IMG/VR virus record: IMGVR_UViG_3300028388_005362 | Location: 29,880 to 93,879 of that record | Source: a virus | DNA length: 64,000 bases | Strand: one strand, 5' to 3' | Shown: in pieces, positions 18,201-63,329 of the stretch | Layout: each line of letters begins with the position of its first letter | Position numbering within the stretch: position 1 is the stretch's first letter | Translations under genes and position numbers: made by a program | The notes under the pieces: model-generated | What the model saw: only the letters and a program-made list of their open reading frames with translations | Told to the model about the DNA's origin: nothing | Databases searched by the model: none

Positions 18201-19034
18201 AAGTACGATGAGAATGGTAATCTCAAAGAAGGCGAGGAAGTCGACGAGAAGGCATTCATTGACACCAAACTCCGCATCGACAAACTCAACAAGATCTCCC
18301 ACGGTAATTACGACCCTGACCTGACATTGTCGGTCAAGCGTAAGTTTTTGGGAAGAGCTTTCTCTCAGTTCCGTACCTGGGCCTTTATGGGATTTGCCAA
18401 CCGTTTTCAGGCAGGCTTTTATGATAACCAGTTGGGATATGAGAGAAAGGGAAGATACCGCTCTTATAGCGCACTTGCCCAACAAATAGGCAAGGTGATG
18501 AAACAGGAGAGCGGGTATAGGGCAGCAGCCTTTGGTGCCAAAGAACTGTTGCGTGCAGCTACCTTCGGGGTATATAACCCGGAAAGCGGTATGGTAGAAG
18601 GACTCAGCGAGGTGGATCAAGCCAATCTTCGAAAGAACCTGATGGAGCTTTATCTCTATCTGGCGTTGGCAATCCTGGTGAGGGCATTCTCAGCCATGGC
18701 AGACACAGACGATGACAAAGAGGCGACATGGAAGTATAGTACTTTCTTCACCATCAATATCCTTGCCCGTCTGCAGACTGATATATTGTTCTACACGAAT
18801 CCGTCGGAATTTGAACGATTGCAGAGAAACGCTCTGGCTGTATTCTCTTTGGTGGTAGACAGTCAGAAGGCTCTGGATTCCACATATAATTGGATGGTCG
18901 GGGGCGACGACATTCTCCAAAGGGGGCCTAATAAAGGGGAATCAAGGATGCTTCGTGACTGGTCTAAATTGATTCCCATGTGGAATCAGAAGTATCGCAT
19001 GGAGGCAGCGTACTCGATGATATTCGACCGTTAA
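15228..19034 (+). CDS. Large internal virion protein (likely ATG start at 15237)
   Basis: 1,268 aa, helical, with HGNY..QFRTW motif and a hydrophobic C-terminal segment; follows the vRNAP. Confidence 0.65.
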   Translation: MLIMGKANCQIFPTAPNGKDSNLFKDVLESTGSREAATYAYGYARSEEFRYKMGDWLYKNPHNPYKGTLDQNGEPIMADLTEVLITKDFEMPQTQDDRFKPLHKVRELEKRDLYKQLGEFKRKLKETEKDVDRVKYRQLIQRTEQRIDALDMEMEDMLKKSSLEEIEQYARQDLDRAWDILQKDEITPGEMYLVGHIISLWQKAGDFSEDDHLFFDQAELEARREGLKEITDKFLEWKDEADHMYTNYLLPLQRNMVESSVKETFGENASSGLDNSRKDKSWAVLNFLDITETSDTLLQAMGAWVKTAQFKAHQESEAVMAEIDQLIKESGVKDFDLFMQTFSNEDSRLTGNLVFRWTQAYFDESKRQKARLHKARNQAMLIEDPKERGRKIAKIHQNYFRQMAKRSITFDLRKLFPDADMYNETSFTEEERRNHEAELRLHLGDKGYERFIEDAEELLEDYKKDREAYMLELEAEFQDEMSAGDTSNFDVHLRVWEMSNSPYWHAQFQEEGYPSKGIQGMYAKPTSRYVKTVPRRFDTDGNDTGYYDKKYEQIEADEKKLKLYDYIFDTLKQSREYLPNHKISFMQVNTLPMIEKTVLETFARDGMLSGAAGMWESLKKATRSDALSDTEYNDIDPLTGEAGMTHQLAFVSNPTKRVEEYVERKEIEWTGKNGKPESDAELNELLLLKEEWRREATDKLANQKSHDLGMVTKAFAAMALSFKHKALIEPQMTLSYKLMNNSLEQVTNDAGSQMVDKDGNPMKKKGLENMRKMLKDFMETSYYGYPVRIKQGQTKKRVLTPQEKKVRKEIESSMEQLKAMHEKGDLTDAEYNGKQQKLQDQLDKLGGVFTASQFGDMMLKYVQILGLGWNVKAAIANLGFGFISNIIEAADGRSFTIGEYFKAMSLVKSSVLKNMSFNQIETKNAKKIRNMMDKLDVLKDSRYELYKATVGGNKLKEKLNWLDPYNPNARTEYINQASIMVAMLMHDGLWDKYDENGNLKEGEEVDEKAFIDTKLRIDKLNKISHGNYDPDLTLSVKRKFLGRAFSQFRTWAFMGFANRFQAGFYDNQLGYERKGRYRSYSALAQQIGKVMKQESGYRAAAFGAKELLRAATFGVYNPESGMVEGLSEVDQANLRKNLMELYLYLALAILVRAFSAMADTDDDKEATWKYSTFFTINILARLQTDILFYTNPSEFERLQRNALAVFSLVVDSQKALDSTYNWMVGGDDILQRGPNKGESRMLRDWSKLIPMWNQKYRMEAAYSMIFDR

Positions 19035-19522
19035 AGGTCTTTGACCATACTCATACTTACCTGGGTCTGCCATTCACGGGAGACCCTTTTTGCTACCCTT
19101 CTTTTGATGTCAATAACAGTGAGGTCCTTGACCAGACCTTTAAGGACGTTGTTGGCTTGTTCAATACTTGAGAACATCCAGTGCATCCACAAAGTTACCA
19201 TGCCCGTCATTTCGTGGGGCTCGCTCTGGGATATATGCACACAGAGGTTTTCATCCTCTGCACGGGCAGTCAGGGCCTGGATGGTAGCTTCAGAGGCCAT
19301 TATTTCCACCATTTCCCTGTGTTCTGTTCTGAAAAAGTCGGTATTCACCTTGATGGTGTACCCGGAGATGACTCCGTTGGTGATCAGGTTCTGCACCCTT
19401 ACCAATGTAGGAGGAGGGCTAAGTCCTATCTTCACCGCCAAGTTCCGATTTGTGATACTGGCATCCTGTTCCAGGATTTTAAGTATCTCGACGTCTTTCT
19501 CGTCGATGACTTTCTTTTTCAT
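19031..19522 (-). CDS. Lrp/AsnC-family transcriptional regulator
   Basis: N-terminal IDEKDVEILKILEQDASITNRNLAVKIGLSPPPTLVRVQNL..GVISGY is a canonical AsnC wHTH. Length 163 aa fits wHTH plus RAM domain. Confidence 0.88.
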   Translation of the reverse strand: MKKKVIDEKDVEILKILEQDASITNRNLAVKIGLSPPPTLVRVQNLITNGVISGYTIKVNTDFFRTEHREMVEIMASEATIQALTARAEDENLCVHISQSEPHEMTGMVTLWMHWMFSSIEQANNVLKGLVKDLTVIDIKRRVAKRVSREWQTQVSMSMVKDL

Positions 19523-19590
19523 AGCTAAAGTTAATAACTGATAATTGTTGTTTGTTGGTTAAAGTAACGAAATAAAATAATTTATAACAA

Positions 19591-19619
19591 GCAAAAGAGG
19601 ACATTAAATCCCCTTTTGC
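19591..19619 (-). terminator. Hairpin between ung and the Lrp gene
   Basis: GCAAAAGAGG...CCCCTTTTGC inverted repeat. Confidence 0.45.
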
Positions 19620-19635
19620 AAAATTAAGTAAAAAC

Positions 19636-20661
19636 TTACCACTTTACGGTCTTTTTCCCGTGGTCCATTAGATAAACATTCGCCTGGGAAAAATGTTTGC
19701 ACCCGAAAAACCCTCTGTTTGCGCTGAGAGGAGAAGGGTGTGCGGCTTCAAGGATCAGGTGTCGCTTCGCATCGATTAGGCCCTTGAGATTTCTGGCAGG
19801 GTTGCCCCACAACATGAATACGACATTCTCCAAATTGTCGTTTATAAGGGAAATAGTTTTGTGGGTGAAGTTCTGCCAGCCTATCCTGCTATGAGAAGCG
19901 GGCTCTCCTTTTCGCACGGTTAAAATGGTATTGAGTAAGAATACACCTTGATAGGCCCATCGCTCCAGTGAGGGAAAACTCCTCAGGTAGAGTCCTCGGC
20001 TGACGTCCTTTTCTATCTCTTTGTAGATGTTCTTCAGAGAAGGAGGTACAACGGAGGGGTCCTTGCTTGAAAAAGCAAGACCGTGTGCCATTCCAGGGGT
20101 GTGGTAAGGGTCTTGTCCGAGTATCACAACTTTTATGTTGTCAAACCCGGTCAATCGATAAGCGTTGAATACGTCGGATGAATCCGGGAAGATGGTATGG
20201 GAAGCTCTTTCTTGCTTGAGCAACTTCATCATTTCCTTCATATAAGGCTGAAGGAACTGCTTACCTATCTTCGGTGCCCACTGATGCCCCACCAGGTCCA
20301 CTATCTTCTCGTGAAGAGCAGATTTAGGACGGCGGGTCCAATGGGAAAGTCCGACTATCCACCAACCGGAGTCATCGGGAGGGGTTCCAGGATACCGGTT
20401 CCCGTCCTCGATGACATGTTCGGCGTTGATGAGATAATCCACATACGGGGTTCTGTAACAGATCACCTTCCCTGCCGAAGACAATCCTTGTCTTACTAAG
20501 AATGCCTGTTGTGAAGGCATCCAATGCTCGTCAGTGACTTCGACAAGGGAGGTGTCGTTATCGACGGTTGCCAGAAGCTCCTCGCTTCCCCTTCCGTCGT
20601 CCGGTTCCAGAATTATCATATCATCGCGTAATTTTGCCGTAAATGTTGATGGTTGGTACAT
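19636..20661 (-). CDS. ung: Family-1 uracil-DNA glycosylase with ~120-aa N-terminal extension
   Basis: GQDPYH, GLAFS, GVFLLNTILTV and HPSPLS motifs. Confidence 0.93.
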   Translation of the reverse strand: MYQPSTFTAKLRDDMIILEPDDGRGSEELLATVDNDTSLVEVTDEHWMPSQQAFLVRQGLSSAGKVICYRTPYVDYLINAEHVIEDGNRYPGTPPDDSGWWIVGLSHWTRRPKSALHEKIVDLVGHQWAPKIGKQFLQPYMKEMMKLLKQERASHTIFPDSSDVFNAYRLTGFDNIKVVILGQDPYHTPGMAHGLAFSSKDPSVVPPSLKNIYKEIEKDVSRGLYLRSFPSLERWAYQGVFLLNTILTVRKGEPASHSRIGWQNFTHKTISLINDNLENVVFMLWGNPARNLKGLIDAKRHLILEAAHPSPLSANRGFFGCKHFSQANVYLMDHGKKTVKW

Positions 20662-21233: not shown

Positions 21234-21333
21234 ATCCACAATGTGCGCAGAATCCCTTGGCTGCAGGGACAATCAAATTATCCTTGCCGCACTTGGGGCA
21301 TTCTGGTAATGGGTCTTTAATCTTCTTGTTCAT
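21163..21333 (-). CDS. Small zinc-ribbon protein (56 aa, not in ORF track)
   Basis: Hand-translated MNKKIKDPLPECPKCGKDNLIVPAAKGFCAHCGYEP...; start overlaps the end of the nuclease gene. Confidence 0.55.
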   Translation of the reverse strand: MNKKIKDPLPECPKCGKDNLIVPAAKGFCAHCGYEPGETDTRPSGQIKVSALQSRI

Positions 21334-22366
21334 CGGCTGCTACCTCCATAGGTTCTAATACAAACTCCCCACCATTCTCCAGCTCTTCGCGGGAGAATAT
21401 CCAATTCTGATCCTTAGAGTGGGAGAGAATACGACGGATGAGGTCCATGTATTCTTCTCTACCCATTTCCAAGTACTTCCTGTGTACTTTGAACCTACGT
21501 ACCAGGTTGTAGCCCGTGGTCTCAACAACGACCATATAATGGTCTGCGGGTTTGAAACCTTTAAAGCCAGCTTCTTCCAGGCGGTACATCACTGCACGCT
21601 CGTAGAATGCCATCTGGCGGTAGTATCGATAATATTCGAATGAATTTTGAAAACGTTGGACGCTCTTTGACGTGGTTTTAAGGTCTCTGATGGAGAAGGT
21701 CTTGTTCTCCATGTCGAGTAGAAGTCCGTCGAGCTTACTTTTACACTCAACAATTTGTCCGTCCACATCCAGTTTCCAGAATATCTCTTTCTCCAGAAAC
21801 AGTTGTTGCTTGGATGTTTGTGGTTCAGCAAACATCTCTTTAACAGAAGGACGTTGAGTGAGGTTCAGTTTGATTCTGGTGATATTGGACATGGTCTTTG
21901 CATCCACGATGTCCTTGCCTTCGTTGACAAGCATGAAGTTCCAATATGCTTGCCCACTCTTTTGTATATCCTTGATGATACGATCGTCCTTGTAGTTCCC
22001 CTTGCCGTATTTTAATTCGTTGGCTGCTTTGAGAACAAAGACCTTGTTATCTTCAATGGATGTATTTCCCCCGGCTTCTCCAAAGCTGAGGGATTCTGTG
22101 CTTCCTGCCTCTTTTCTGTACTGTAAGGCTTTGTCGATGATGTTCTTGACCGTGTCACTGGGCACTTTGTCCAGCATGACCGGTTCAATATTCTCCAATA
22201 TCAACTTATGGACCAAATCGCCCAAGGTGAGTGCCTTGGTATCGTCTCCTTTAAAGGTGCCCATGACATAGTCGTGGTACTTTTCAGGAGAGCCGCCTTC
22301 ATCCGGGTTGATGTAGGAGAGTGAGCTATTGTTGATAGCTTTTGACTCCTCATAGGTAGTGTTCAT
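21317..22366 (-). CDS. PD-(D/E)xK exonuclease (RecE/ExoVIII-like)
   Basis: LGDLVH, KSKLD, DLKTT and YYRQMAFY motifs. Confidence 0.8.
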   Translation of the reverse strand: MNTTYEESKAINNSSLSYINPDEGGSPEKYHDYVMGTFKGDDTKALTLGDLVHKLILENIEPVMLDKVPSDTVKNIIDKALQYRKEAGSTESLSFGEAGGNTSIEDNKVFVLKAANELKYGKGNYKDDRIIKDIQKSGQAYWNFMLVNEGKDIVDAKTMSNITRIKLNLTQRPSVKEMFAEPQTSKQQLFLEKEIFWKLDVDGQIVECKSKLDGLLLDMENKTFSIRDLKTTSKSVQRFQNSFEYYRYYRQMAFYERAVMYRLEEAGFKGFKPADHYMVVVETTGYNLVRRFKVHRKYLEMGREEYMDLIRRILSHSKDQNWIFSREELENGGEFVLEPMEVAADEQED

Positions 22367-22405: not shown

Positions 22406-22431
22406 CAAATTTAAACAGAATTATATTCTGT
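22406..22431 (-). promoter_or_regulatory. Bacteroidota -7 element TAAATTTG (22413-22406) with adjacent perfect palindrome ACAGAAT-TAT-ATTCTGT (22415-22431)
   Basis: Matches TAnnTTTG consensus upstream of the nuclease gene; box is one of ~10 copies. Confidence 0.7.
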
Positions 22432-22435
22432 GAAA

Positions 22436-27962: not shown

Positions 27963-28652
27963 TTAGAAGCTCAGTTCTTCGGTAGTACTGGCGTCCATGG
28001 TTGCACTATCAGCAGCTTCTTCAGCCGTCTCGTTCTTCGGAGCCTCAGCGGCATCGAAGTTCATGGGAGTGCTGGCTGCAGGAGAACCATCACCATCAGG
28101 CTTTGGCTTCTTGACCACGCGGTCATATTTAGGATCAAGTACTAAACGTGTAGGAACACCCTCTTTCATCAATTCAACAAACGGGCTGATAGCACGCTTG
28201 GGGAAGGTGGTGTAGTCCTTATTGTTGAGGATGAGCTTGATGCGAAGAGGAATACCTTGGTAATGATTTCCAGCCAGGGCAATGTATTGCTCTGCCAACA
28301 CTTTGAAGTTGGGAGCTTTCAATACCAACTGCTCAGCTGGGATGAAAGGCTCCAAAATATGCTTCAGACGTTCTCCCATGGCATTCATCTCACTCTTGAT
28401 GAACTCTTTTGGATCTTTCTGGAATACAGTCTTGGCGAGCTTTTCCCACTGCTTGAAATCCGGTGAAAACTCCTTGTGTACAAAAGTAGAACCTGCAGGG
28501 TCAGTAAAGGTGATGGCGATAACCATCTTGTCTGAGCCTTGTTTCATGGGTTCGTACTTGATTGAGGTAATTTGCACATTCTCGTTGATACCAGCGTTCA
28601 TGAATTTACCAGCGCCGGTGGACTCGTCAAAACCGAAATGATTTTCTGACAT
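27963..28652 (-). CDS. Putative single-stranded DNA-binding protein
   Basis: Between AAA ATPase and primase; acidic tail ending EELSF. Confidence 0.6.
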   Translation of the reverse strand: MSENHFGFDESTGAGKFMNAGINENVQITSIKYEPMKQGSDKMVIAITFTDPAGSTFVHKEFSPDFKQWEKLAKTVFQKDPKEFIKSEMNAMGERLKHILEPFIPAEQLVLKAPNFKVLAEQYIALAGNHYQGIPLRIKLILNNKDYTTFPKRAISPFVELMKEGVPTRLVLDPKYDRVVKKPKPDGDGSPAASTPMNFDAAEAPKNETAEEAADSATMDASTTEELSF

Positions 28653-28680: not shown

Positions 28681-28723
28681 CAAATTTACGAATTATTACT
28701 CTTTATACAGTATATAATTATGC
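28681..28723 (-). promoter_or_regulatory. -7 element TAAATTTG (28688-28681) with box ACAGTAT-ATA-ATTATGC (28707-28723) 18 nt upstream
   Basis: Same geometry as the promoters at 48907 and 63297. Confidence 0.65.
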
Positions 28724-35909: not shown

Positions 35910-36560
35910 CTATTGTTGGTTACAAAATTCAAGTAGTTCAATTAGTTTAATTGCCTGTGCCCGTAAGCCAACAAGAGTAGCGTTGTAAACCTCCAAGTCA
36001 GCATCCAAGTCGCTTATATAGGCTTCTGATTCATGAGGATCTGATGGAGACTCCATTCCCTTGCGCGTAATACGAACAAGGATGCCTCCCTTATCCTTTA
36101 TAGCATCAACCTCATTAGGGAAACGGGTATCAGAAATGATCCATCTGTCCTTATCCTTGTACTCTGCCATCAGAGAATTAACCCAGGCGTTTTGGTGAAC
36201 CGCTTTACGAATACCTTCAGTTCCCAGCTTTTGTAGGAACTCCCGGTAAGTCATTGGTTTACCATCTATATTCCACTCCGGTGGCAGCTGTTGGTCTCTG
36301 AACGCTTGGTCGTTCTCCCAACGTTCGGCAAAGTCAGGCATTCCTAAAAGGATTCCTGCTATTTCTTTGACCTTGCCGGCCCATTTGTGGTTCTCCCATT
36401 GACCTATACGATCATGGTTAGATGTTAAGTTTTTAAGAGTGTCGAAAAAAACTACATCTTCAACTTCCATTTTATGGCGGTCATACTTAAGCTGAAGCAT
36501 CAGGATGTGGGCAAAGGTGTCCTTGCCGGACCCCTTATACCCTATTAGTCCTATAATCAT
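35910..36560 (-). CDS. Deoxynucleoside monophosphate kinase
   Basis: GYKGSGKDT, REFLQKLGTE, ISDTRFPNE, HESE. Confidence 0.88.
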   Translation of the reverse strand: MIIGLIGYKGSGKDTFAHILMLQLKYDRHKMEVEDVVFFDTLKNLTSNHDRIGQWENHKWAGKVKEIAGILLGMPDFAERWENDQAFRDQQLPPEWNIDGKPMTYREFLQKLGTEGIRKAVHQNAWVNSLMAEYKDKDRWIISDTRFPNEVDAIKDKGGILVRITRKGMESPSDPHESEAYISDLDADLEVYNATLVGLRAQAIKLIELLEFCNQQ

Positions 36561-46800: not shown

Positions 46801-48844
46801 CGTAAGTACAAGAACAGTTGGTCAATGTATCGTTGAAGTATACCTGCAACGTAACAAAATCACTGCCGTTGCCTTCTTCATCCACCACACGGGCTTGTAT
46901 TTCCAAAGTATCTCCAGCGATGCTGTCAAAATATCCAGGGTTTGGAGTTACCCAGAACTTGGTTAAAGTATCTTGCTCGTAGTCTGTCTCAAAGGTTACA
47001 TACTCCAGAACATTTATACTGTCCATGTCCACTCCCAGGTCAAGGTCTATTCCTTGCAAGGTCTGACCATTGAGGTTAACATACGATGCAAGATCAAAAC
47101 TCCATCCAGCACAAGTCGATGTATCGATGTCATAACAGGCTTCAAACAATACAGGGTCTTGAGTAATTTCCGGAGCTGCTTGTTTGACTATATCACCCAG
47201 GCAAATACACTCGCTGTCCCCATTGGGGTCAAAGTATACTGAGGCAGTATAATAGTTTCCTACATCACCGTCCATATCGTAAGGATACATAGCAAGATAG
47301 AGTGTGTCCCCTGAAGGATTATACCCAGAGTCCGCTTCGAAAATCACTTCCTTGTTGTACACACTTCCCGGACGAGCATGCCAGGTTCCTTGTGCATAAG
47401 CATAGAAGGTGTTCTGGTTTCCGGAATCGGCAGTATTTAGATCTAACCCATCGAGCTCTTGACCATTCTCATCGATAAAATCTGACAGGTCAACCACCCA
47501 AGTATCACACCCTGAAGGTTGGTTGGCAGAAACAACCGCAAGAGAAGTTCCAGACATTTGTGGAGCATTCGACACCACTCTGCTGCCAAAGTCAGATACT
47601 TCAACAGTAATCGTAGCAGAATCAGTCCAATTACCATACTGGTCCTTATAGCGATACTGGAATGTGTGTTGAGTACCTACTGAAGGCATTGTTTGTCCAT
47701 CACGTAAGAACACCCAGAAACTTCCATTACCATAGAAATAGGAGCCTCCAGAAGAAGTCTTGTAGTAATGACTTTTTACTTTGTAAGGCCCAAAATCAAA
47801 TGAATCATCTACTGCCGCTGTGGCGGGGTTTAAGTCAAGCTCTATATCATGGTATCCCCCGTTACTTCCCGCATTATCGTCAGCGCCAGCGGTAACCCTC
47901 AGATTCTTGAGGATAAAATTGTGTCCGACATGGTACTGCTGTGACTTGTCGAAGTAAACCAAATCATCAAAGATCTTGACCGGAGAAGAACATAAAGAAT
48001 CTCCAGAAGGACTCTCTACAATATTCACGTTCAAAGCCGTGAAGTGGTCGTTATTGATGTGGTCATAGTTTCCTGCATAGTAAACTTTGTCCCAACCAGT
48101 AAAGTTAGTGTCCTGTGAGTCAAGAAAGAATGTGTAGGAATGACCGTAAGGCTCTCCTTCTCCGACTTGCCCCTCAGAAGGCCAGGTAATTACACCTGAG
48201 GCGTCTGTTGGTATAACCCCAGCAGGCTCAGCATTATAATTGTATTCCTGATAGTTGAAATTAAGCGACCTATACCCAGCTCTATCGCCCCACAATGGGT
48301 TTTCTATGGCGTCTTGAGTATAACGTATATCTACCTCTTTTGGCCCTGCTGGCTGAGCCATAAATTGGGAAGTACGGCTAATATCCGTTGTGCCCCCTGG
48401 TTGATAATACCTATACGTGAACTCATTGATCGTTGTTCTTGGAATACCGTGAGATTTGAAATAAAATTCACAGTATCCAGAACCAATAGAGTCCACCCAT
48501 ATCTGAAGATAGTCTTCAGCGTTATGGTAAATGGTCAAGGTGTCCACCCAAGCTCCTGTGTGAGTTTTGAATTTCACAGAATCTATGGTGCCTGTGATAT
48601 TATCAGATAGAGCCCGATTCCATCCTTGCGGGTTATCGATGTTGCCATCAGTGTCATAAAGGGAACCTACGCTTTCCCAGTAGATACCTGACTGAGAGAA
48701 AGCTCCCAGGGAAAGCAACATAACCATTGCTGTTGCAACAGTTCTGCGAAAATTTAGACTCTCAATAAATGAGGTCAGGGCATACAAGACGCCCGCTCCA
48801 GCCATGCCAAGCATGAGTAGAGGAAACAATACAAGTTTGTTCAT
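43847..48844 (-). CDS. 1,665-aa exported/surface protein with tandem Ig/CshA-like repeats
   Basis: Hydrophobic N-terminus; six ~130-aa Cys-containing repeats (nt ~45240-47570). Confidence 0.75.
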   Translation of the reverse strand: MNKLVLFPLLMLGMAGAGVLYALTSFIESLNFRRTVATAMVMLLSLGAFSQSGIYWESVGSLYDTDGNIDNPQGWNRALSDNITGTIDSVKFKTHTGAWVDTLTIYHNAEDYLQIWVDSIGSGYCEFYFKSHGIPRTTINEFTYRYYQPGGTTDISRTSQFMAQPAGPKEVDIRYTQDAIENPLWGDRAGYRSLNFNYQEYNYNAEPAGVIPTDASGVITWPSEGQVGEGEPYGHSYTFFLDSQDTNFTGWDKVYYAGNYDHINNDHFTALNVNIVESPSGDSLCSSPVKIFDDLVYFDKSQQYHVGHNFILKNLRVTAGADDNAGSNGGYHDIELDLNPATAAVDDSFDFGPYKVKSHYYKTSSGGSYFYGNGSFWVFLRDGQTMPSVGTQHTFQYRYKDQYGNWTDSATITVEVSDFGSRVVSNAPQMSGTSLAVVSANQPSGCDTWVVDLSDFIDENGQELDGLDLNTADSGNQNTFYAYAQGTWHARPGSVYNKEVIFEADSGYNPSGDTLYLAMYPYDMDGDVGNYYTASVYFDPNGDSECICLGDIVKQAAPEITQDPVLFEACYDIDTSTCAGWSFDLASYVNLNGQTLQGIDLDLGVDMDSINVLEYVTFETDYEQDTLTKFWVTPNPGYFDSIAGDTLEIQARVVDEEGNGSDFVTLQVYFNDTLTNCSCTYGDSTPDPLDPPILSDVYVTACYNKAADCPGWRFDISDYIDANGQTVVGLDIDTDIAGFQDTYTNWFYGTYYTDHDSASPFVIDFYEKENASVEGQELILGMVAFDTEGDTSDYKTLTVFFDGTDSTCACTMDTICISCPPLVTSPINDTLCGTVAQDCLGYLFDMSPYVDNNDQIVEGIDMNVSQAGFQEATETPEALLWTEHGADNPLLIRIYPQEHGLLDGDSITFDVQVFDTDGDTSTTSTITLYFEPSQTTCECLVDTINPADSPSVQTPITDTVCYNIDWYTCAYLTDLDSHITTNGQTIAGIDLDTGTEAIENSLHVFGKGTFFSYNNVEGETELKFIKDQGVSLEGSSITIWLRVYDTEYDFSNHVQYTLYFDGTEPTCDCPTPIDDNNEGDPEITQNIYETICASSAGNEWWIDLSPYITPGDNPIAGIDVDITTPGDQEKRQWVWQPGDTAVIWSKHDSEINQWIRIAKDNDLVGETVSLAIRVFDTEGNYSNTGSLMMYFDERPLSCQEVYPEIEYNYDLTAAPIFEGDMHFSGEMNIADIPFIEWADYTTMTMANWSIWDLTNKSKVSVYTREVNSPAGLYDLKVEKKVRSGTNKIVWQAIPQSGDTLMSGGPIAVYAQLEDDFGIRYNVTYRIECYNGISYAGNSNPESENTTILLTQANEHNGVYTFDAGDIAANYSTLEALPRLRLYNPSTQTVLDSIDLGNGFWLHDIQGYAYYITGGSGDEKDYILSTVYLAPMDGLGNVYPSHAGLTALEVMVDYDAEPNNSVPQWHNPINYWTLAQGMARMPAIAWFGLADYMYGTFHKAVGDLDTSVSGNQYTVEKDNYRLTYDKGWVTIEPMYVFDPLAKYDDLTLTHGFYSVHQYYVNVETEYRIRSAAREVTGLDETSSLANDNEFPQGDVRIVKYLRRFHKLEYFTVTNVPFTAEYKEVNTPKGTWRIHGTEARFYPHNGVRFTGWEDLWLDGKLVRVVVL

Positions 48845-48881: not shown

Positions 48882-48949
48882 GCAGAATCTTATTCTGTCA
48901 GAACTGCAAATATACAGCTTTTTTGCCTGTATACAGTATATTATTCTGT
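48882..48949 (-). promoter_or_regulatory. Promoter TATATTTG (48914-48907) bracketed by 17-bp boxes (48882-48898, 48933-48949)
   Basis: GCAGAAT-CTT-ATTCTGT and ACAGTAT-ATT-ATTCTGT, 51 bp apart. Confidence 0.72.
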
Positions 48950-49281: not shown

Positions 49282-49452
49282 AAGTCAACCCCTCCATTGG
49301 TTAGGGTTATCCAAATCGATATTGCCCTGTAACAGGCAGTATATGAGACCGAATACAGCCCCTATTTTGTGTACAAATTTCTTCATAAGCAGTATTATAT
49401 TTCGTATTTTTGCAAGAATCATTTACTAATAACCCTTAAACATCATTTAATT

Positions 49453-49713
49453 ATGTCAGACGTATCATTAGGCGCTTACCTTCAAGATTGTGGAGTCAAA
49501 GGACTCGTTGAAAAGCAGTACATCAGTACTACTACTCCAATCAATACTTACATGGCGCAGCCTGCAGAATCAGCGTTTGCCAACGGAGCCTTAGGCTCAC
49601 AGTTCGTTGCTGACCCTGATGCGGGCAATCAGACAGAAGGTTGGTGGGACGATATGTGGGATTACTGGGGTCGCAAGGTAAGCGACTGGACGCTCGAAAA
49701 TATCGAACGATAG
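49453..49713 (+). CDS. Small orphan protein, opposite to its neighbours
   Basis: Upstream TATTTTTG (49405-49412) and box, AT-rich leader, downstream terminator. Confidence 0.65.
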   Translation: MSDVSLGAYLQDCGVKGLVEKQYISTTTPINTYMAQPAESAFANGALGSQFVADPDAGNQTEGWWDDMWDYWGRKVSDWTLENIER

Positions 49714-50683: not shown

Positions 50684-51105
50684 AATCGAGGCATGTTTAG
50701 TTCTTGCCAGAATCTCTCCGGCAAGCAAATATTAGGCACATCCATCGCATCGTAGAACAAAGGAGCAATGTGCTCAGGCTCATACCCAGCCAATCCACAT
50801 CCTATCTCTGTTACCAGGAAGGTATGGGAAGGGTGAGCTTTGGCATACCTGATGAAATTATCAACATGTATCTCGATAGCGTCAAGAGAAATAGTTTCGA
50901 TTTGGTATCCTTTGGTTGGAATGGCAAAACACTGGCCTGTCATTCCATAACCCACACCCCACTGGGCATTCCACTGGATGTGAGCCGCACGAGCAGCGCC
51001 AGCCCCGTGTATGCCAGCAAGGTTAGAACCAAATACGAACACCTCACCACTGTTAAGCCCAGTGATGTGTTCAGGGGTTGTTCTATTTGTCACGCTGAGT
51101 CTCAT
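50680..51105 (-). CDS. Macrodomain-like phage protein
   Basis: VFVFGSNLAGIHGAGAA and IGCGLAG glycine loops. Confidence 0.75.
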   Translation of the reverse strand: MRLSVTNRTTPEHITGLNSGEVFVFGSNLAGIHGAGAARAAHIQWNAQWGVGYGMTGQCFAIPTKGYQIETISLDAIEIHVDNFIRYAKAHPSHTFLVTEIGCGLAGYEPEHIAPLFYDAMDVPNICLPERFWQELNMPRL

Positions 51106-53264: not shown

Positions 53265-53306
53265 CAAATATAATACTTTTTGTTTTTATACAAAACAATA
53301 TTCTGT
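53265..53306 (-). promoter_or_regulatory. Promoter TATATTTG (53272-53265) with box ACAAAAC-AAT-ATTCTGT (53290-53306)
   Basis: Box 17 nt upstream of the -7 element and just upstream of the divergent PAS gene. Confidence 0.6.
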
Positions 53307-53320: not shown

Positions 53321-53956
53321 ATGTTTCGATTATTTAGGAAAGCTACTATGGATGATTATCCCAAAACCAGAGATTTACTTGTCCAAAAAATACGTTTGTT
53401 GGATATGTTCCAGGATAGCGTGGGAGGATTACTCGTTAAGGATTTTGAGGAGCGGAAGGTGATTCACGTCAACAAGAACTTCTTGAGGTATATGAATATG
53501 GAAACTTTGAAGGAAGGGATAACAGGAGTTGAGCTCATGCAGCAGTTTATACACCCAGACTATTTACAGTACCACCAGAATTCTATTGAGTATTTGAGAA
53601 ATGAGAATAGCAAACGAGATGTGGTCACACACCTGATTCGAAGAGCTTCGGACAAAGCAGTCTTCAGGGCGGTGCTAATCAAGGTATCCGTAGAAGGAAC
53701 ACCACTGAAATTAATAGTGGGCAGGTATTTTCCACAAGATGAAGAGGAAATACTCAATGAGTATAGGGGGTTGCTCTATGATAAGATCCAGCAGGTGGAC
53801 GACTTTGTTGAAGCCGCCCAAGACCCGCTGGATTCTGTTGTAAAAAGGTCGATGTCCCTGAGTAAAATACCAGAAATGGCAGAGGTCACACGTTATGTGC
53901 AACAATTAGAGGATTTGATCACTGATTTAAGGGACAGCAACAAGACGCCCGACTAA
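53321..53956 (+). CDS. Stand-alone PAS-domain protein with C-terminal helical region
   Basis: FQDSVGGLLVKD...IHVNKNFLRYM...FIHPDY is a PAS signature; no kinase domain. Confidence 0.75.
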   Translation: MFRLFRKATMDDYPKTRDLLVQKIRLLDMFQDSVGGLLVKDFEERKVIHVNKNFLRYMNMETLKEGITGVELMQQFIHPDYLQYHQNSIEYLRNENSKRDVVTHLIRRASDKAVFRAVLIKVSVEGTPLKLIVGRYFPQDEEEILNEYRGLLYDKIQQVDDFVEAAQDPLDSVVKRSMSLSKIPEMAEVTRYVQQLEDLITDLRDSNKTPD

Positions 53957-54698: not shown

Positions 54699-55568
54699 TT
54701 AGGCTTCAGCTGGGCGCTTTTCACACATAGCCTCTTGCCATACTTGTTCAGCTAAATATCGACCGGCAGTAACATCGGTGAGAATATGTCCCACCCATCT
54801 CTCAGGTCGTTCGTCCTGAAGGTCATCGTATGAAATGCTTTTGGCACTCATATTAGCCTCAATGACGTCCAGGTATTTATACTTGGTGAACAGGTCTTTG
54901 AAGAGTTTGAGGTTCTTATCGAACTCCAAACGTTTCCTCGCTGCAGCTTCAGCTTCTTTCTTGACCTTGGCAGGTTCCTCGATGAGGTTAGGGAAGAGCT
55001 CCAAAAACTTCTGGTATCTTTCATTGAGGTCCCCCCAGAACGGCTCACCTTCTGGGGTATTCTCCCAGAGGAAAGCAGAATCAAGCAAATGCTTATGCTT
55101 ATAGTCTTTATAACGCTCTACAAACTTCTCCAGGGACTCATGAGCTGCAGTGATAGCGGCTTTAAAAGGGTCAATCGCCCCTGCAACCTGCATGAACAGC
55201 ACGATGGGATAGAGTATTGATGGGCCGTGAAACCCGTATTGTGCGTGAACCTCAACTTCACCTGGAAGATCTTCTTTTACAGGTTCGGCCTTGTTTTCGC
55301 TTAGGACTTTGTCAACAAGGGCATGCCATTTGTCATGAATTTGGGTCCAGTACTCAAGGCCCTCATCGGTGTCCGACCAATCGAAAGCATGAATTATTAC
55401 TTTCTCAGGTTTATGGGCAAGAACACCATCCAAATTCTTGTAAACTACCCATACATTGTCTTTTGTTGAAGCTCTGCCTAAATAAGCCATACGCTCATAA
55501 AAAGTGGTTACACCATTCTCCTTCAAGAATGTGTGGAATTGTCCTACTGTGATTTTCTTCTTTTCCAT
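54699..55568 (-). CDS. Hypothetical protein with internal AFxWxxTxEGxx(F/Y)W repeat
   Basis: AFDWSDTDEGLEYW and AFLWENTPEGEPFW. Confidence 0.65.
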   Translation of the reverse strand: MEKKKITVGQFHTFLKENGVTTFYERMAYLGRASTKDNVWVVYKNLDGVLAHKPEKVIIHAFDWSDTDEGLEYWTQIHDKWHALVDKVLSENKAEPVKEDLPGEVEVHAQYGFHGPSILYPIVLFMQVAGAIDPFKAAITAAHESLEKFVERYKDYKHKHLLDSAFLWENTPEGEPFWGDLNERYQKFLELFPNLIEEPAKVKKEAEAAARKRLEFDKNLKLFKDLFTKYKYLDVIEANMSAKSISYDDLQDERPERWVGHILTDVTAGRYLAEQVWQEAMCEKRPAEA

Positions 55569-55631
55569 TTGATTATTCTGTTTAATGGATTAAATATCGG
55601 TTATTTGACTGTTATACGGTATTATATACTG

Positions 55632-55727
55632 CTATGAAATGCCAACAAAATGGCTTAGCAGCATGACCCCGACAGTCAGGATGACTGCCAGGATCAGTTG
55701 TGCGGCGATAATTATGTGTCGTTTCAT
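55632..55727 (-). CDS. 31-aa membrane peptide
   Basis: Hand-translated MKRHIIIAAQLILAVILTVGVMLLSHFVGIS; ATGA-coupled. Confidence 0.45.
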   Translation of the reverse strand: MKRHIIIAAQLILAVILTVGVMLLSHFVGIS

Positions 55728-59577: not shown

Positions 59578-59615
59578 TAGTAATATATAGTAATATAATA
59601 GAAGTTAGTAGAATT

Positions 59616-59927: not shown

Positions 59928-59931
59928 TATT

Positions 59932-60411: not shown

Positions 60412-60502
60412 CGAAGAAATGAGCTAAACAGAACAAAGTTCTGAGCCCGTACTGACATCCTGTCACAAATGCACACGAAGAGGTATCGTTGGAGGTATCA
60501 CA

Positions 60503-60537
60503 AAAAACAGCCCGCTAAAAAAGCGGGCTATTTTGTT
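60503..60537. terminator. Terminator-like hairpin downstream of the tRNA fragment and the Tad2 gene
   Basis: AGCCCGCT-AAAAA-AGCGGGCT with A/T runs on both sides. Confidence 0.65.
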
Positions 60538-60546
60538 GATTATCAA

Positions 60547-60602
60547 GTGATTCGCCTGGGGCTCGAACCCAGGACCCACGCCTTAAAAGGGCGTTGCTCT
60601 AC
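60547..60602 (-). tRNA. 5'-truncated tRNA-Lys(UUU) fragment (attP core), not a complete tRNA
   Basis: ACGCC-CTTTTAA-GGCGT anticodon arm, CTGGG-TTCGAGC-CCCAG T-arm, 3' acceptor strand GCGAATC; matching 5' strand absent. Confidence 0.85.
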
Positions 60603-60802
60603 GCCCTGCTTAATAACTTCCCTACAGATTAAAAACCACCTCTATTTCTTTAATAACGAGCGTTTGCGATGATTTGCGTCTCATTCTGCAAACATAACAA
60701 TATTTGTTATATTGGCAAAAATGGGCTACTTTTACATCGTCTGAGGTATCATTGGAGGTATCTTTTGAAGAGACCCCAAAAAGATACCTCCGAAGCTCTG
60801 TA

Positions 60803-62020
60803 ATGAAGCACAAAATAAAACTCATCCACCCGTCTATCAAGAGGTTACGCACTGCCGAGGGATACCCCATCATGTTGGAGGTATACCTGGGTCGTGGAGA
60901 CCGGATTCGACTCAAATCGGGGTATCATTTTGACAAAGAGGCAGTCTCAGATACTGGATTGGTACGGGGAAGATCTTCCGCTGCAGTGCAGACAAACAAG
61001 CAACTGAAGCGAATGCTGGACAAAGCCCACCAGATTGATGAGATGCTGGGGGCTGAATACACCCGCAAGCAGTTCATGGATGCCTGGAGGGGGATAGACA
61101 AGGAGGATGACCCCAGTGATTTGTTTAAGTACTTTGAAATCGTGATTCCGCAAAAGCCAAAGGGCAGGACAAGGAACTACTTTGTCACCACCTTAAAGCA
61201 CCTGAAGGCATTTCACCCAGATCCCATACCTATATATAAGGTAGACAAGGACTTTGTGGAAGGATACAGGAAATTTTTGGAGGAATGGCTGGCACCCAAT
61301 ACCGTCAGAACGCATCTATCTAAGCTCAGAAACGTGCTCAATCTGGCGGTGGGAGACAAGAATATGGACCTGAAGGGGTATGTACCTCCTTTTATGACCA
61401 ACCGCTTACTCCCTGCTCCCGTGCGCAAGACAAGGGACCGCTCGTTGAATCCCCGGCTGATTCAGCGATTGTTCGAGCTTCCGACAGCCAAAGGCAGACG
61501 CCACTACAAGTCCCAGCGGCTGTATCATTTGTCCTATCTTTGTTATGGGGCTAACCTGATTGACCTGGCATTGCTCAAGCAGTCATCCATCGTTGGGGGA
61601 ACCCTGGAGTTTGACCGCAGCAAAACGGGTCGTCAGATTCCACCGGTGGTGATAACCTCCGAGATGGAGCAGATCTTTGAGGATCTGAAGCCCTACTGCA
61701 AGGAAGATTACCTGGTCCACATCCTCAAGGATGAGTTCAACTGGCACAACGTCAGAACACGGGTTGACCGCTGGGACAGACACATCAACGACTGGTTGAG
61801 CTCAGCCTGTGATGTACTGGGAATACAGCCCAAGGTGACCTTCTATTCGGCCCGGCATAGTTTTGCCCAACATTTGCGCTACGCGGATAAGAGCGATTCG
61901 TTCATTGCCAGGTTCTTGGCGCACTCCTCAGAGAGTACGGTCAAGGGATACCTGGTCAACCATGATGTAAAACAATTAATTGAAGTTCAGGATAGCCTGC
62001 TTCAGCAACGTAAACCATAA
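60803..62020 (+). CDS. int: Tyrosine integrase (Bacteroidota type)
   Basis: Arm-binding N-terminus, SAM-like core, YLCYGANLIDL, RSKT, TFYSARHSFA, LAHS, TVKGYL. Confidence 0.9.
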   Translation: MKHKIKLIHPSIKRLRTAEGYPIMLEVYLGRGDRIRLKSGYHFDKEAVSDTGLVRGRSSAAVQTNKQLKRMLDKAHQIDEMLGAEYTRKQFMDAWRGIDKEDDPSDLFKYFEIVIPQKPKGRTRNYFVTTLKHLKAFHPDPIPIYKVDKDFVEGYRKFLEEWLAPNTVRTHLSKLRNVLNLAVGDKNMDLKGYVPPFMTNRLLPAPVRKTRDRSLNPRLIQRLFELPTAKGRRHYKSQRLYHLSYLCYGANLIDLALLKQSSIVGGTLEFDRSKTGRQIPPVVITSEMEQIFEDLKPYCKEDYLVHILKDEFNWHNVRTRVDRWDRHINDWLSSACDVLGIQPKVTFYSARHSFAQHLRYADKSDSFIARFLAHSSESTVKGYLVNHDVKQLIEVQDSLLQQRKP

Positions 62021-62031
62021 ACAATAAGACC

Positions 62032-63129
62032 ATGGGAGTTTTTAGAGTAGAAAGAGACACTAAGGGGCTGGTGAAGGTTGTGTGGGAGAACCACAGCAAC
62101 CACACCGATCGTTTTGCCTTGTCTACTGGTGTGAAGGTCTCCCAGGAGAACTTCCACTCAGGTCGGGTCTTGGATACAGACCCCCACCACAAGTTCAAAA
62201 ACGAGGTTATCAAGGAGTACTTCTCCGAGATCATCTCTCTGGTGATTCGCTGTAACAAGCAGAACAACCAGACTAACGCCAAACTGTTGGAAGGAATGTG
62301 GAGTGCACGTCAGGACGGAGTCAATTTTGACTATGTCATCCAGTACAAAACGTGGGCCGAAAGCAAATACCTGGATAAGGGGTATAGCGAGCAGACCCTC
62401 AAGAATGTAATGGGACACGCCAATCTGATCTCCGAGTTCGAAGCTCATCGCCGCATGTCCCTGGATGTGTCTGTGTTTGACAAAGCGACCATGGATGAGT
62501 TGGTGGTTTACATGCAGCTGCACAAACAGTATACTGACCAGCACGTGCTGCGCCAGGTCCGAATGGTCAAGACCTTCTTGAGCGAGCGGTATCCTGTGGC
62601 AGACTGGGGCTGGATAAAATATCGTCCGATGTCAACCCGGATTCACTGGCTCAACGACAGTGACATCCAGCTGCTGCAGCGAACACAGCTTGAGCCTCGC
62701 CTTAACCAGGTACGGGAAATGCTGTTGGTGATGATAGGAGGAGGACTAAGTCTGCAGGACATGTTCAGGCGTCAGAAGTTTGTCCGGGGATTCCGTTCCC
62801 GGTACTACGAGCTGGCAATTGAGTTGTACAAGGATCACACTCGTGTGGACCCGGACGAAGAACGCTTTGAGGGCCAGTTGCGTGAGGTTCTCTACAAGTG
62901 TGAGATAGAACGTCAAGTGGAAACAGACAGCGGACAGTACGTACCTTTATATATGGCGGTATCTGGTTCCCTGGGATTTGACACCTATGTGATGGAAGCA
63001 CTCATTCGTGGGTACAGCCCTTACAAGTTGTTCTACAGTTTACCTATGGCCCACTGGCAATTGTTCTATCCTTATATACGAGAGCGGAATCGCTACAACA
63101 AAGAGCTCAAAAAGTTCAAAGGGTTCTAA
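62032..63129 (+). CDS. Degenerate, probably catalytically inactive integrase-like protein
   Basis: LSTGVKV arm region and SAM-like core; GLSLQDM replaces GLR..D and no HxxR. Confidence 0.65.
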   Translation: MGVFRVERDTKGLVKVVWENHSNHTDRFALSTGVKVSQENFHSGRVLDTDPHHKFKNEVIKEYFSEIISLVIRCNKQNNQTNAKLLEGMWSARQDGVNFDYVIQYKTWAESKYLDKGYSEQTLKNVMGHANLISEFEAHRRMSLDVSVFDKATMDELVVYMQLHKQYTDQHVLRQVRMVKTFLSERYPVADWGWIKYRPMSTRIHWLNDSDIQLLQRTQLEPRLNQVREMLLVMIGGGLSLQDMFRRQKFVRGFRSRYYELAIELYKDHTRVDPDEERFEGQLREVLYKCEIERQVETDSGQYVPLYMAVSGSLGFDTYVMEALIRGYSPYKLFYSLPMAHWQLFYPYIRERNRYNKELKKFKGF

Positions 63130-63134
63130 ACAAC

Positions 63135-63167
63135 AAACCCCCGGCATACCACCGGGGGTTTTTATTT
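63135..63167 (+). terminator. Intrinsic terminator after the integrase pair
   Basis: AAACCCCCGG/CCGGGGGTTT-TTATTT. Confidence 0.8.
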
Positions 63168-63261
63168 ACCCAACAACACCGGGTAAATGTTTCACCACCG
63201 CAAATCTACACAAAATTTACAACTGTTTGTGGATAAAAGGTCCCTATATTTGGCGACCTAA

Positions 63262-63329
63262 CCATAATAATATTCTGTATAACGTATAGTATTCCTTATA
63301 TTTGTTCTCATAACAGAATATAATTATGG
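63262..63329 (+). promoter_or_regulatory. Promoter TATATTTG (63297-63304) bracketed by 17-bp boxes (63262-63278, 63313-63329)
   Basis: Box-18 nt-TATATTTG-8 nt-box, identical in geometry to 48882-48949. Confidence 0.75.

What the first reader, a model, noticed from the sequence alone, without database searches (positions are those of the whole stretch)
19031..63329. Candidate phage-encoded Lrp/AsnC regulon: ~10 Lrp-like 17-bp palindromes at fixed promoter positions
Seen: boxes of consensus ACAGWAT-N3-ATWCTGT lie in intergenic DNA or over start codons at 22415 (perfect), 28707, 48882, 48933, 49389, 53290, 55565, 55616, 63262 and 63313, with a weaker one at 48914. Box-18 nt-TAnnTTTG occurs at 28707, 48933 and 63262, and with 17 nt at 53290. 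The full box-18-TATATTTG-8-box occurs at both 48882-48949 and 63262-63329. Three loci have box pairs exactly 51 bp apart, and two downstream boxes cover the start codon. Established: TAnnTTTG is the Bacteroidota -7 element, and the E. coli Lrp consensus is YAGHAW-ATT-WTDCTR. Inference: the phage Lrp/AsnC protein (19031-19522), an amino-acid-sensing family, co-regulates the recombination, replication, surface-protein, PAS and Tad1-like/late-side promoters. This would be a nutrient-responsive switch in an integrase-bearing crAss-like phage that shows no recognisable CI-type repressor in this window.
Basis: partly seen in the sequence, partly recalled or inferred. Interest (0 to 1): 0.9.

Follow-up and report, generated by a model that had tools for sequence, protein, structure and literature searches.

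The report
Phage Lrp regulator with conserved operators
A crAss-like phage carries its own Lrp/AsnC-type regulator and about 15 matching 17-bp operator boxes clamped around its main replication and structural-gene promoters; related phages that have the regulator also have an integrase and the boxes, and relatives without it have neither, so this is probably the lysogeny or lytic-gene control switch of a temperate crAss-like lineage.

Summary
ACAGWAT-N3-ATWCTGT occurs 8 times at two mismatches or fewer, against 0.71 expected. A weight matrix finds 16 sites in the 93.9-kb genome against about 1 expected, and 15 lie outside coding DNA. Five pairs are 51 bp apart, in a strand-aware layout: box, 18 nt, TAnnTTTG, 8 nt, box. 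The downstream box often holds the start codon. Half-site deviations are not compensated, so this is a protein site and not a hairpin.

The 163-aa protein at 19031-19522 is a full-length Lrp/AsnC member by profile (E 2e-25 to E. coli Lrp) and by fold (TM 0.72-0.76). The box core equals the published E. coli Lrp consensus AGAATwwwATTCT.

Three syntenic but very divergent relatives carry the Lrp ortholog, an integrase and the same paired boxes at orthologous promoters. A fifth, fragmentary genome has integrase and boxes. Four relatives that lack Lrp lack both, though they form one clade, so this is one loss event. Only four genes share that distribution, and Lrp is the only recognisable transcription factor among them. 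Bacteroidota host lrp genes carry similar sites just upstream of themselves.

Binding, direction of regulation and any amino-acid response are untested. The scan has not reported this on other DNA. A sibling note on this genome proposes the same link.

The parts
19031..19522 (-). Phage Lrp/AsnC-family regulator gene (163 aa, P0001). It has an N-terminal AsnC-type winged HTH with recognition helix PTLVRVQNL and a C-terminal RAM-like beta-alpha-beta-beta-alpha-beta domain. It is the last gene of the minus-strand replication block, after a terminator that follows the UDG gene.
   Evidence: Pfam HTH_24 7e-14 and HTH_AsnC-type 5e-11. The family profile matches E. coli Lrp 2gqq over positions 4-157, E 2e-25. 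AlphaFold2 pLDDT 90.8 with a RAM fold. Foldseek top hits are all Lrp/AsnC, TM 0.72-0.76.
22415..22431 (-). Perfect box ACAGAATTATATTCTGT. It abuts the -7 element TAAATTTG (22413-22406, 1-nt gap) upstream of the PD-(D/E)XK nuclease gene 21317-22366.
28707..28723 (-). Box, then 18 nt, then TAAATTTG (28688-28681), upstream of the 229-aa gene 27963-28652. Relatives G001, G008 and G017p carry box pairs at the orthologous AAA_24 / 229-aa junction.
48882..48949 (-). Double-box promoter: box 48949-48933, 18 nt, TATATTTG (48914-48907), 8 nt, box 48898-48882. It heads the long minus-strand replication block; the first gene is the 1665-aa ORF 43847-48844.
49389..49456 (+). Box pair 51 bp apart (49389 and 49440). 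The downstream box contains the in-frame ATG 49453 of the ORF ending at 49713. The -7 element between the boxes is degenerate.
53290..53306 (-). Box, then 17 nt, then TATATTTG (53272-53265), directed leftwards. It also lies 14 nt upstream of the plus-strand ATG near 53321, in a divergent region.
55565..55632 (-). Box pair 51 bp apart (55632-55616 and 55581-55565). The downstream box covers the start codon (55568-55566) of the 289-aa gene 54699-55568. The -7 element is degenerate (GATATTTA).
63210..63329 (+). Phased triple box (63210, 63262, 63313) with two TATATTTG -7 elements (63245 and 63297). The last box holds the ATG 63326. This promoter heads the plus-strand block that runs over the contig end into the terminase, portal, capsid and virion-RNAP genes. 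A boxed orthologous promoter is present in G001, G008, G017p and G003.
60428..60708 (.). Two weak boxes (60428, 11.6 bits; 60692, 11.5 bits) flank the tRNA-like fragment and lie just upstream of the integrase start.
60704..63129 (+). Tyrosine integrase (60704-62020) and an integrase-like paralog (62032-63129), directly upstream of the triple-box promoter. The same integrase-next-to-boxed-promoter arrangement occurs in G001, G008, G017p and G003.

Best explanation
The 17-bp boxes are operators of the phage's own Lrp/AsnC-family protein (19031-19522). A dimer binds each palindrome, AC-AGAATwwwATTCT-GT.

At the main host-RNA-polymerase promoters, two boxes about five helical turns apart (51-52 bp) bracket the Bacteroidota -7 element. 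One box occupies roughly -47 to -31, where the -33 element would normally sit. The other covers +1 to about +17, often including the start codon. Cooperative occupation of both, as expected for an oligomerising Lrp-type protein, would occlude the promoter. That would shut off the replication (middle) and structural (late) operons together.

The regulator, the boxes and an integrase are inherited and lost as a set. The most likely role is therefore the lytic-gene repressor or lysis-lysogeny regulator of a temperate crAss-like lineage, possibly autoregulated.

Shown here: the motif, its architecture, its conservation, the family membership of the protein, and the co-distribution. Inferred: that this protein binds the boxes, that binding represses, and that the system serves lysogeny. 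No evidence bears on any small-molecule (amino-acid) response.
For: (1) Enrichment and placement. There are 8 matches against 0.71 expected. A weight matrix gives 16 hits against about 0.85 expected, 15 of them outside coding DNA, p about 1e-14. Spacing to TAnnTTTG is fixed.
(2) It is a protein site. Of 301 arm positions in 43 sites, 100 are asymmetric and only 9 are compensated.
(3) The protein is a full-length Lrp/AsnC member. The box core equals the published E. coli Lrp consensus AGAATwwwATTCT / yAGhAwATTwTdCTr (PMC5554404).
(4) Conservation. G001, G008 and G017p share 25-73% amino-acid identity and the same gene order. Each has the Lrp ortholog after the UDG gene. A matrix trained only on G000 finds pairs 50-53 bp apart numbering 5, 3, 1, 1 and 2 in the five boxed genomes. 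It finds 0 in eight others, with 0.00 expected. Aligning the five late promoters shows that only the two boxes and the -7 element are conserved.
(5) Lrp-less relatives lack boxes at the orthologous promoter. These are G005, G006 and G011 (96-100% complete) and G002 (78% complete, and it includes the UDG-RNAP junction).
(6) Only four G000 genes share the distribution: an unknown 302-aa protein, Lrp, a dNMP kinase and the integrase-like gene.
(7) Integrase is present in all five boxed genomes and in no unboxed one.
(8) Independent support from outside phages. In 29 Bacteroidota host lrp loci, 17 of 23 matrix hits lie within 250 bp upstream of the gene, p 3e-15. A chromosomal member of the phage-like subfamily has a box pair 53 bp apart beside it.
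(9) Boxes also lie upstream of the Lrp genes of G017p (17 bits, abutting a -7 element), G008 and G001.
Against: There is no binding or expression data.

The Lrp-less genomes form one clade on an MCP+TerL tree. The co-distribution is therefore a single evolutionary event, and it is equally shared by the integrase, a dNMP kinase and an unknown 302-aa protein.

Small fast-evolving proteins could escape the tblastn presence/absence test.

Host Lrp proteins appear to recognise very similar sites and could be the true binder.

In G000 itself the Lrp gene has no good box (best 8.5 bits) and no clean promoter of its own. The gene is not near the integrase, unlike classical immunity regions.

The upstream box is centred near -39, which would also suit a class II activator, so the sign of regulation is open.
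Confidence: 0.6

Rival explanations
1. The boxes are read mainly by a host Lrp/AsnC protein, so the phage ties its middle and late promoters to the host's feast/famine state. The phage Lrp would then be a competitor, mimic or modulator and not the primary binder.
For: Bacteroidota host lrp genes carry sites matching the same weight matrix just upstream of themselves. Lrp/AsnC genes are common in the phylum: 66 of 301 sampled genomes at E of 1e-18 or lower. The box core is the generic Lrp consensus.
Against: The boxes disappear together with the phage gene in Lrp-less relatives, which presumably still infect Lrp-bearing Bacteroidota. Phage boxes have strongly conserved outer ACAG/CTGT positions that vary in host sites. 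The phage recognition helix (PTLVRVQNL) differs from the host type (PTLERVKKL).
Confidence: 0.15
2. Another phage protein binds the boxes. Candidates are the integrase-like paralog, the unknown 302-aa protein, or an undetected small regulator in the early region. The Lrp protein would have a different target.
For: The integrase-like gene and the 302-aa gene share the same presence/absence pattern. The integrase sits next to the boxed late promoter in all five genomes. Many small early proteins have no family assignment.
Against: A 7-3-7 palindrome with an AT-rich centre, identical to the Lrp consensus, is not what tyrosine-recombinase arm or core sites look like. That statement rests on established knowledge of the family and was not tested here. 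No other HTH regulator was found among the co-distributed genes. Host and chromosomal Lrp genes are flanked by the same motif.
Confidence: 0.1
3. The phage Lrp binds the boxes but works as an activator or dual regulator of lytic timing, for example switching on -33-less middle and late promoters. It would have nothing to do with lysogeny, and the co-loss with integrase would be coincidental.
For: The upstream box replaces the -33 element at a fixed 18-nt distance from the -7 element, centred near -39, which resembles class II activator sites. Boxed promoters lack a TTTG -33 motif. The gene lies in the replication block and not in an immunity region.
Against: Downstream boxes over +1 and the start codon, and boxes abutting the -7 element (22415; the G017p Lrp promoter), are repressor positions. 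The same architecture at both middle and late operon heads argues against a temporal discriminator. Loss coincides with loss of integrase.
Confidence: 0.12
4. The palindromes are hairpin or cruciform promoter elements for the virion RNA polymerase, like N4 early promoters, or they are chance AT-rich repeats.
For: The 7-bp arm with a 3-nt centre recalls N4 vRNAP hairpin promoters (established knowledge). The phage encodes a giant virion RNAP-like protein (3307-15234).
Against: Arm deviations are not compensated: 100 asymmetric against 9 compensated. The boxes sit at fixed distance from host-type -7 elements in front of middle and late genes. In crAss-like phage phi14:2 such genes are host-RNAP dependent, and early vRNAP transcripts have no common upstream motif (10.1101/2020.03.07.982082). 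Chance is excluded.
Confidence: 0.02

Closest known systems
E. coli Lrp and the Lrp/AsnC (feast/famine regulatory protein) family, with their palindromic operators
   Same: The protein has the same domain order and fold, an AsnC-type winged HTH plus a RAM domain. The operator core AGAATwwwATTCT is the published E. coli Lrp consensus. Sites occur in multiple, helically phased copies. An operator probably lies upstream of the regulator's own gene.
   Different: It is encoded by a phage and its targets are phage promoters. The recognition helix is PTLVRVQNL and not P(C/T)LERV(R/K)(R/K)L. The RAM domain is so divergent that Pfam's AsnC_trans_reg model does not hit, and no conserved ligand loop is visible. 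The operator is extended to 17 bp with conserved outer ACAG/CTGT. Site pairs are strictly 51-52 bp apart and bracket a -7 element.
Lambdoid CI/Cro-type prophage repressors with multiple operators overlapping lytic promoters
   Same: There are palindromic 17-bp operators in several copies that overlap core promoter elements of the lytic transcription units. The system is associated with an integrase. Autoregulation is probable. The logic is one protein silencing many lytic promoters.
   Different: The protein fold is unrelated (Lrp/AsnC, not the HTH_3/Cro family). The operators are dispersed over more than 40 kb at operon heads and internal promoters, and are not clustered in one immunity region. 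The regulator gene is far from the integrase. No anti-repressor or LexA-type cleavage module was identified.
Predicted repressor/anti-repressor genes of epsilon crAss-like phages (PMC11054128), and the tripartite middle promoters of crAss-like phage phi14:2 (10.1101/2020.03.07.982082)
   Same: These are crAss-like phages with hints of temperate regulation. Middle and late genes are read by host RNA polymerase from promoters that carry an extra conserved block.
   Different: The epsilon-group repressor was identified as a conventional prophage repressor, and no integrase was found there. Here the regulator is Lrp-type and an integrase is present. tblastn with the Lrp protein found no crAss-like record among 50,697 deposited phage genomes. 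PHROGs has no family for it.

Membership tests
Lrp/AsnC (FFRP) transcription regulators | N-terminal AsnC-type winged helix-turn-helix | tested here: met
   Pfam HTH_24 scores 51.5 bits (cut-off 21.9). HTH_AsnC-type scores 42.6 bits (cut-off 27) at residues 6-52.
Lrp/AsnC (FFRP) transcription regulators | C-terminal RAM (beta-alpha-beta-beta-alpha-beta) domain, total length about 150-170 aa | tested here: met
   Pfam's AsnC_trans_reg model does not hit. The family profile nevertheless aligns to E. coli Lrp over positions 4-157 (E 2e-25). The AF2 model (pLDDT 90.8) has E68-76, H78-89, E94-99, E109-117, H120-130 and E138-143. Foldseek gives full-length TM 0.72-0.76 to Lrp/AsnC structures.
Lrp/AsnC (FFRP) transcription regulators | Binds AT-rich-centred palindromes of the AGAATwwwATTCT type as a dimer or higher oligomer | not testable with these tools
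   The motif matches the consensus and co-distributes with the gene. Binding itself needs EMSA or footprinting.
Lrp/AsnC (FFRP) transcription regulators | Effector (amino-acid) binding at the RAM-domain interface | tested here: inconclusive
   No conserved residues are seen in the C-terminal half of the 39-member subfamily alignment. The stretch aligned to E. coli Lrp SGDF--DY is variable and carries an insertion. This neither shows nor excludes a ligand.
Temperate-phage immunity repressor (functional class) | Operators overlapping the promoters of the lytic transcription units | tested here: met
   Boxes lie at about -47 to -31 and at +1 to +17, or abut the -7 element, at the heads of the replication and structural operons and at internal promoters.
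Temperate-phage immunity repressor (functional class) | Co-occurrence with an integration module | tested here: met
   A PF00589 integrase is present in all five boxed genomes and in none of G002, G004, G005, G006, G010, G011 and G013. A partial tRNA-like segment lies next to the integrase in G000. The distribution reflects a single loss event on the tree.
Temperate-phage immunity repressor (functional class) | Expressed in the lysogen and required to keep lytic genes off; confers superinfection immunity | not testable with these tools
   No sequencing run holding this DNA was listed. There is no cultured host or lysogen.
Crassvirales (crAss-like phages) | crAss-type major capsid, tail ring proteins, giant virion RNAP block, genome of about 90-100 kb | tested here: met
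   Pfam CrAss_Ring_1, CrAss_Ring_2 and CrAss_Ring_3_4 hit. The MCP is 34-36% identical to crAss002, Carjivirus and others over 97-99% of its length. The genome is 93,879 bp with a 3975-aa ORF.

The most novel reading that the evidence does not exclude
An ancestral temperate lineage of environmental crAss-like phages uses a captured and re-specified Lrp/AsnC protein as its prophage repressor, in place of a CI-type protein. Paired operators, phased five helical turns apart, bracket each host-polymerase promoter and silence the replication and virion operons. A derived lytic clade lost repressor, operators and integrase together. If the divergent RAM domain still senses a metabolite, induction would be coupled to host nutrition and not to the SOS response.
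Probability: 0.35. Interest if true: 0.85.

Novelty: new variant of a known kind. Interest (0 to 1): 0.72.

Why it matters
crAss-like phages are among the most abundant phages known. Whether and how they lysogenise is an open question, and cultured members are described as unable to do so (PMC8375218 abstract).

This finding gives a concrete, testable control circuit for an integrase-bearing crAss-like lineage. It names a regulator, a defined 17-bp operator, a precise promoter architecture and the list of controlled operons. It also provides natural 'knock-out' relatives that lost the whole set.

It would be the first Lrp/AsnC-type regulator shown to run a phage's gene programme. No PHROG family covers it, and no crAss-like genome in the phage database searched here has it. 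It also suggests a route by which phage development could be coupled to host Lrp-type regulation.

Tried and rejected
Searches for relatives that returned nothing useful:
- Single-protein peptide-pattern scans of IMG/VR with the Lrp protein and with the N-terminus of the 1665-aa protein found no relatives.
- A composite DNA pattern scan of IMG/VR returned 78 loci, all chance matches without full boxes.
- A second promoter-pattern scan re-found only G001 and G008.
- The metagenome scan with the Lrp alignment gave only three short contigs without informative flanks.
- The genome-contig scan with the capsid protein found no prophage copies.
- The blastn comparison with known phages gave only a 53-nt N4-like match.

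Annotation that stayed empty:
- PHROGs and Pfam gave no annotation for most small early proteins.
- The Pfam LexA_DNA_bind hit seen in the pooled scan was not located.

Readings considered and rejected:
- The hairpin-promoter reading was rejected because arm mismatches are not compensated.
- rIIA/rIIB were rejected as box partners, because G002 has them but has no boxes.
- The putative box at 48914 was rejected (no matrix hit).


Full report
**Observation**

The window is bases 29880-93879 of a 93,879-bp virus record. The pattern ACAGWAT-N3-ATWCTGT occurs 8 times at two mismatches or fewer. Dinucleotide-preserving shuffles expect 0.71, and none of 100 shuffles reaches 8.

Read on the strand of the gene each box serves, the boxes form one architecture:
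- an upstream box, 18 nt (once 17, once 19), and the Bacteroidota -7 element TAnnTTTG;
- in the full version, 8 more nt and a second box.

Box pairs exactly 51 bp apart occur at five places:
- 48882/48933
- 49389/49440
- 55565/55616
- 63262/63313
- genome 4541/4592, which is outside the window.

A third phased box lies at 63210. In three downstream boxes the gene's ATG is at box positions 14-16.

A symmetric weight matrix gives 16 hits of 11 bits or more in the genome, against about 0.85 in shuffles. Fifteen of them lie outside coding DNA, which is only about 6-10% of the genome, so p is about 1e-14. The suggested weak box at 48914 is not supported.

**Protein site or hairpin**

I examined 43 sites from five genomes, which give 301 arm positions. 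One hundred of these are asymmetric, so they would be mismatches in a hairpin. Only 9 are symmetric departures from consensus. Typically one half-site is a good ACAGAAT and the other is degenerate. That is the signature of a dimeric DNA-binding protein and not of an extruded stem-loop.

**The protein**

ORF 19031-19522 (minus strand, 163 aa) hits Pfam HTH_24 and HTH_AsnC-type. It does not hit the Pfam RAM-domain model. An exhaustive HMMER search found a subfamily of proteins of about 160-170 aa. They share the N-terminus MRKKxID...GLSPxPTLVRVxNL and have a very divergent C-terminal half.

Three results place the protein in the Lrp/AsnC family:
- A profile of 39 subfamily members matches E. coli Lrp (2gqq) over essentially its full length, E 2e-25, and then some 25 further Lrp/AsnC structures.
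- The AlphaFold2 model (pLDDT 90.8) has three N-terminal helices followed by a beta-alpha-beta-beta-alpha-beta domain.
- The best Foldseek matches are all Lrp/AsnC proteins, at TM 0.72-0.76 over the whole chain.

Membership is therefore met. An amino-acid ligand is not shown. Nothing in the C-terminal half is conserved across the subfamily, and the stretch aligned to Lrp's SGDFDY loop is variable.

**The motif is an Lrp-type site**

The published E. coli Lrp consensus sequences are yAGhAwATTwTdCTr and AGAATwwwATTCT (PMC5554404). The phage consensus TAA-ACAGAAT-AAT-ATTCTGT-TTA contains the second one exactly.

There is also support from outside phages. I sampled 301 Bacteroidota genomes and fetched 29 host lrp/asnC loci. 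Of 23 matrix hits of 9 bits or more in these loci, 17 fall within 250 bp upstream of the lrp start codon. That region is about 7% of the DNA searched, so p is 3e-15. Examples are GCAGAATCTTTTTCTGT and AAAGAATATTATTCTTT. These are most simply autoregulatory operators.

A chromosomal member of the phage-like subfamily sits in a Bacteroidales MAG, in a neighbourhood of TonB receptors and a PDZ protease. It has a box pair 53 bp apart, with a best score of 22 bits, in the intergenic region next to it.

**Relatives**

The genome is crAss-like. It has the CrAss tail-ring Pfam families. Its major capsid protein is 34-36% identical to crAss002, Carjivirus and others.

Capsid-based retrieval from IMG/VR gave 168 relatives. 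I analysed the long ones.

G001 (92.5 kb) and G008 (92.2 kb, 100% complete) are syntenic with this phage at 25-73% protein identity. Each has the Lrp ortholog in the same place, after the UDG gene at the end of the replication block. A 96.4-kb contig binned in a Bacteroidetes MAG (G017p) is a fourth such genome.

A matrix trained only on this window's eight sites finds box pairs 50-53 bp apart as follows:
- G000: 5 pairs
- G001: 3
- G008: 1
- G017p: 1
- the fragment G003: 2
- each of eight other relatives: 0, with 0.00 expected.

The boxed promoters are orthologous across genomes:
- the head of the structural operon, which is the gene homologous to 63326-63628;
- the head of the replication operon;
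- the AAA_24 / 229-aa junction.

When the five late promoters are aligned, only the two boxes and the -7 element are conserved. The spacers are not.

Relatives without an Lrp gene lack the boxes at the same promoter. These are G005, G006 and G011 at 96-100% completeness, and G002 at 78%, which includes the UDG-RNAP junction.

**Which protein is the binder**

Compare the three other Lrp-positive genomes with the four Lrp-negative ones. Only four genes of this phage are present in all of the former and in none of the latter:
- an unknown 302-aa protein in the virion block;
- the Lrp gene;
- a dNMP kinase;
- the integrase-like gene.

rIIA and rIIB are excluded because G002 keeps them without boxes. 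Lrp is the only recognisable sequence-specific transcription factor in the set.

There are caveats:
- On a capsid-plus-terminase tree the Lrp-negative genomes form one derived clade. The pattern is therefore one loss event and not repeated correlation.
- Small fast-evolving proteins could escape tblastn.
- Host Lrp proteins evidently recognise similar sites.

**Link to lysogeny**

A PF00589 tyrosine integrase lies immediately upstream of the double-boxed late promoter in all five boxed genomes. It is absent from all seven unboxed genomes that were searched for PF00589. In this window a partial tRNA-like segment (60556-60610) sits beside the integrase. Two weak boxes flank that region.

Several placements point to repression:
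- Boxes cover the -33 region and the +1/start-codon region.
- Some boxes abut the -7 element (22415; the G017p Lrp promoter).
- The same arrangement stands at the heads of both large host-polymerase transcription units, which fits simultaneous silencing.

[quoted passage not shown] Early virion-RNAP transcripts there have no common upstream motif (10.1101/2020.03.07.982082). The boxed promoters carry host-type -7 elements and stand in front of middle and late genes.

I therefore favour a repressor that keeps lytic genes off, acting as a prophage-maintenance or lysis-lysogeny regulator.

Points against this reading:
- The gene is far from the integrase.
- In this genome the Lrp gene lacks a clear promoter and a clear box of its own.
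- The upstream box is centred near -39, which would also suit an activator.

**Comparison with what is known**

No paper in the library links Lrp/AsnC proteins with crAss-like phages. Epsilon crAss-like phages were reported to have a conventional repressor and anti-repressors but no integrase (PMC11054128). The protein has no PHROG family. tblastn found no crAss-like homolog among 50,697 deposited phage genomes.

The components are of known kinds: an Lrp-type regulator, palindromic operators and an integrase. Three things are new:
- a phage-encoded Lrp regulon;
- the strict two-box architecture phased at 51-52 bp around a Bacteroidota -7 element;
- its association with temperate crAss-like phages.

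**Verdict**

The regulon and its cognate protein are well supported computationally, and I put about 0.7 on the phage Lrp binding the boxes. Repression in the service of lysogeny is plausible, at about 0.4-0.5. The nutrient-sensing element is unsupported.

Noticed in passing
L231-L259 (29 host lrp/asnC loci from sampled Bacteroidota genomes): Host-type lrp/asnC genes, with recognition helix PTLERV[KR][KR]L, carry palindromes matching the phage-box matrix 10-165 bp upstream of their start codons. This holds in 14 of 29 loci and for 17 of 23 hits. They are presumably autoregulatory operators.
   Followed up: partly
L198:10589-10658: A chromosomal member of the phage-like Lrp subfamily (PTLVRVQKL) lies in a Bacteroidales MAG, in a TonB-receptor / PDZ-protease neighbourhood. 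A box pair 53 bp apart sits in the 470-bp intergenic region after the gene.
   Followed up: partly
G008:39917-39937 (L175): ACAGAAC-N7-ATTCTGT lies 106 nt upstream of the G008 Lrp gene. The half-sites are those of the box, but the centre is 7 nt and not 3.
   Followed up: no
window 50993-51045: A 53-nt stretch is 85-87% identical to the gp14 / macrodomain (ADP-ribosylglycohydrolase) gene of N4-like coliphages. It is the only nucleotide-level match of this region to deposited phages.
   Followed up: no
window 60556-60610 (-): There is a partial tRNA match (Rfam model positions 9-63 of 71, 25.5 bits, below gathering) just upstream of the integrase. This is consistent with an attP core derived from a tRNA 3' part.
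   Followed up: partly
whole genome G000, proteins under 420 aa: The pooled Pfam scan reported a Tad2-like anti-Thoeris domain (5.8e-23) and a weak LexA_DNA_bind domain (4.7e-05) in proteins that I did not locate individually.
   Followed up: no
P0003 (2321-aa protein from the representative library): This protein matches residues 80-117 of the phage Lrp RAM domain in 18 separate stretches (E 1e-31). It is a long repeat protein built of a RAM-like segment, and it is unexplained.
   Followed up: no
window 304-1212 and 35910-36560: An unknown 302-aa protein in the virion block and a dNMP kinase share the Lrp/integrase/box presence-absence pattern. Both are present in all Lrp-positive genomes and absent from all Lrp-negative ones.
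   Followed up: partly
window 19600-19640 (-): A TAATTTTG -7-like element overlaps the 5' arm of the terminator hairpin that follows the UDG gene, about 105 nt upstream of the Lrp start. A transcript starting there would lack the full hairpin and could read into the Lrp gene.
   Followed up: no
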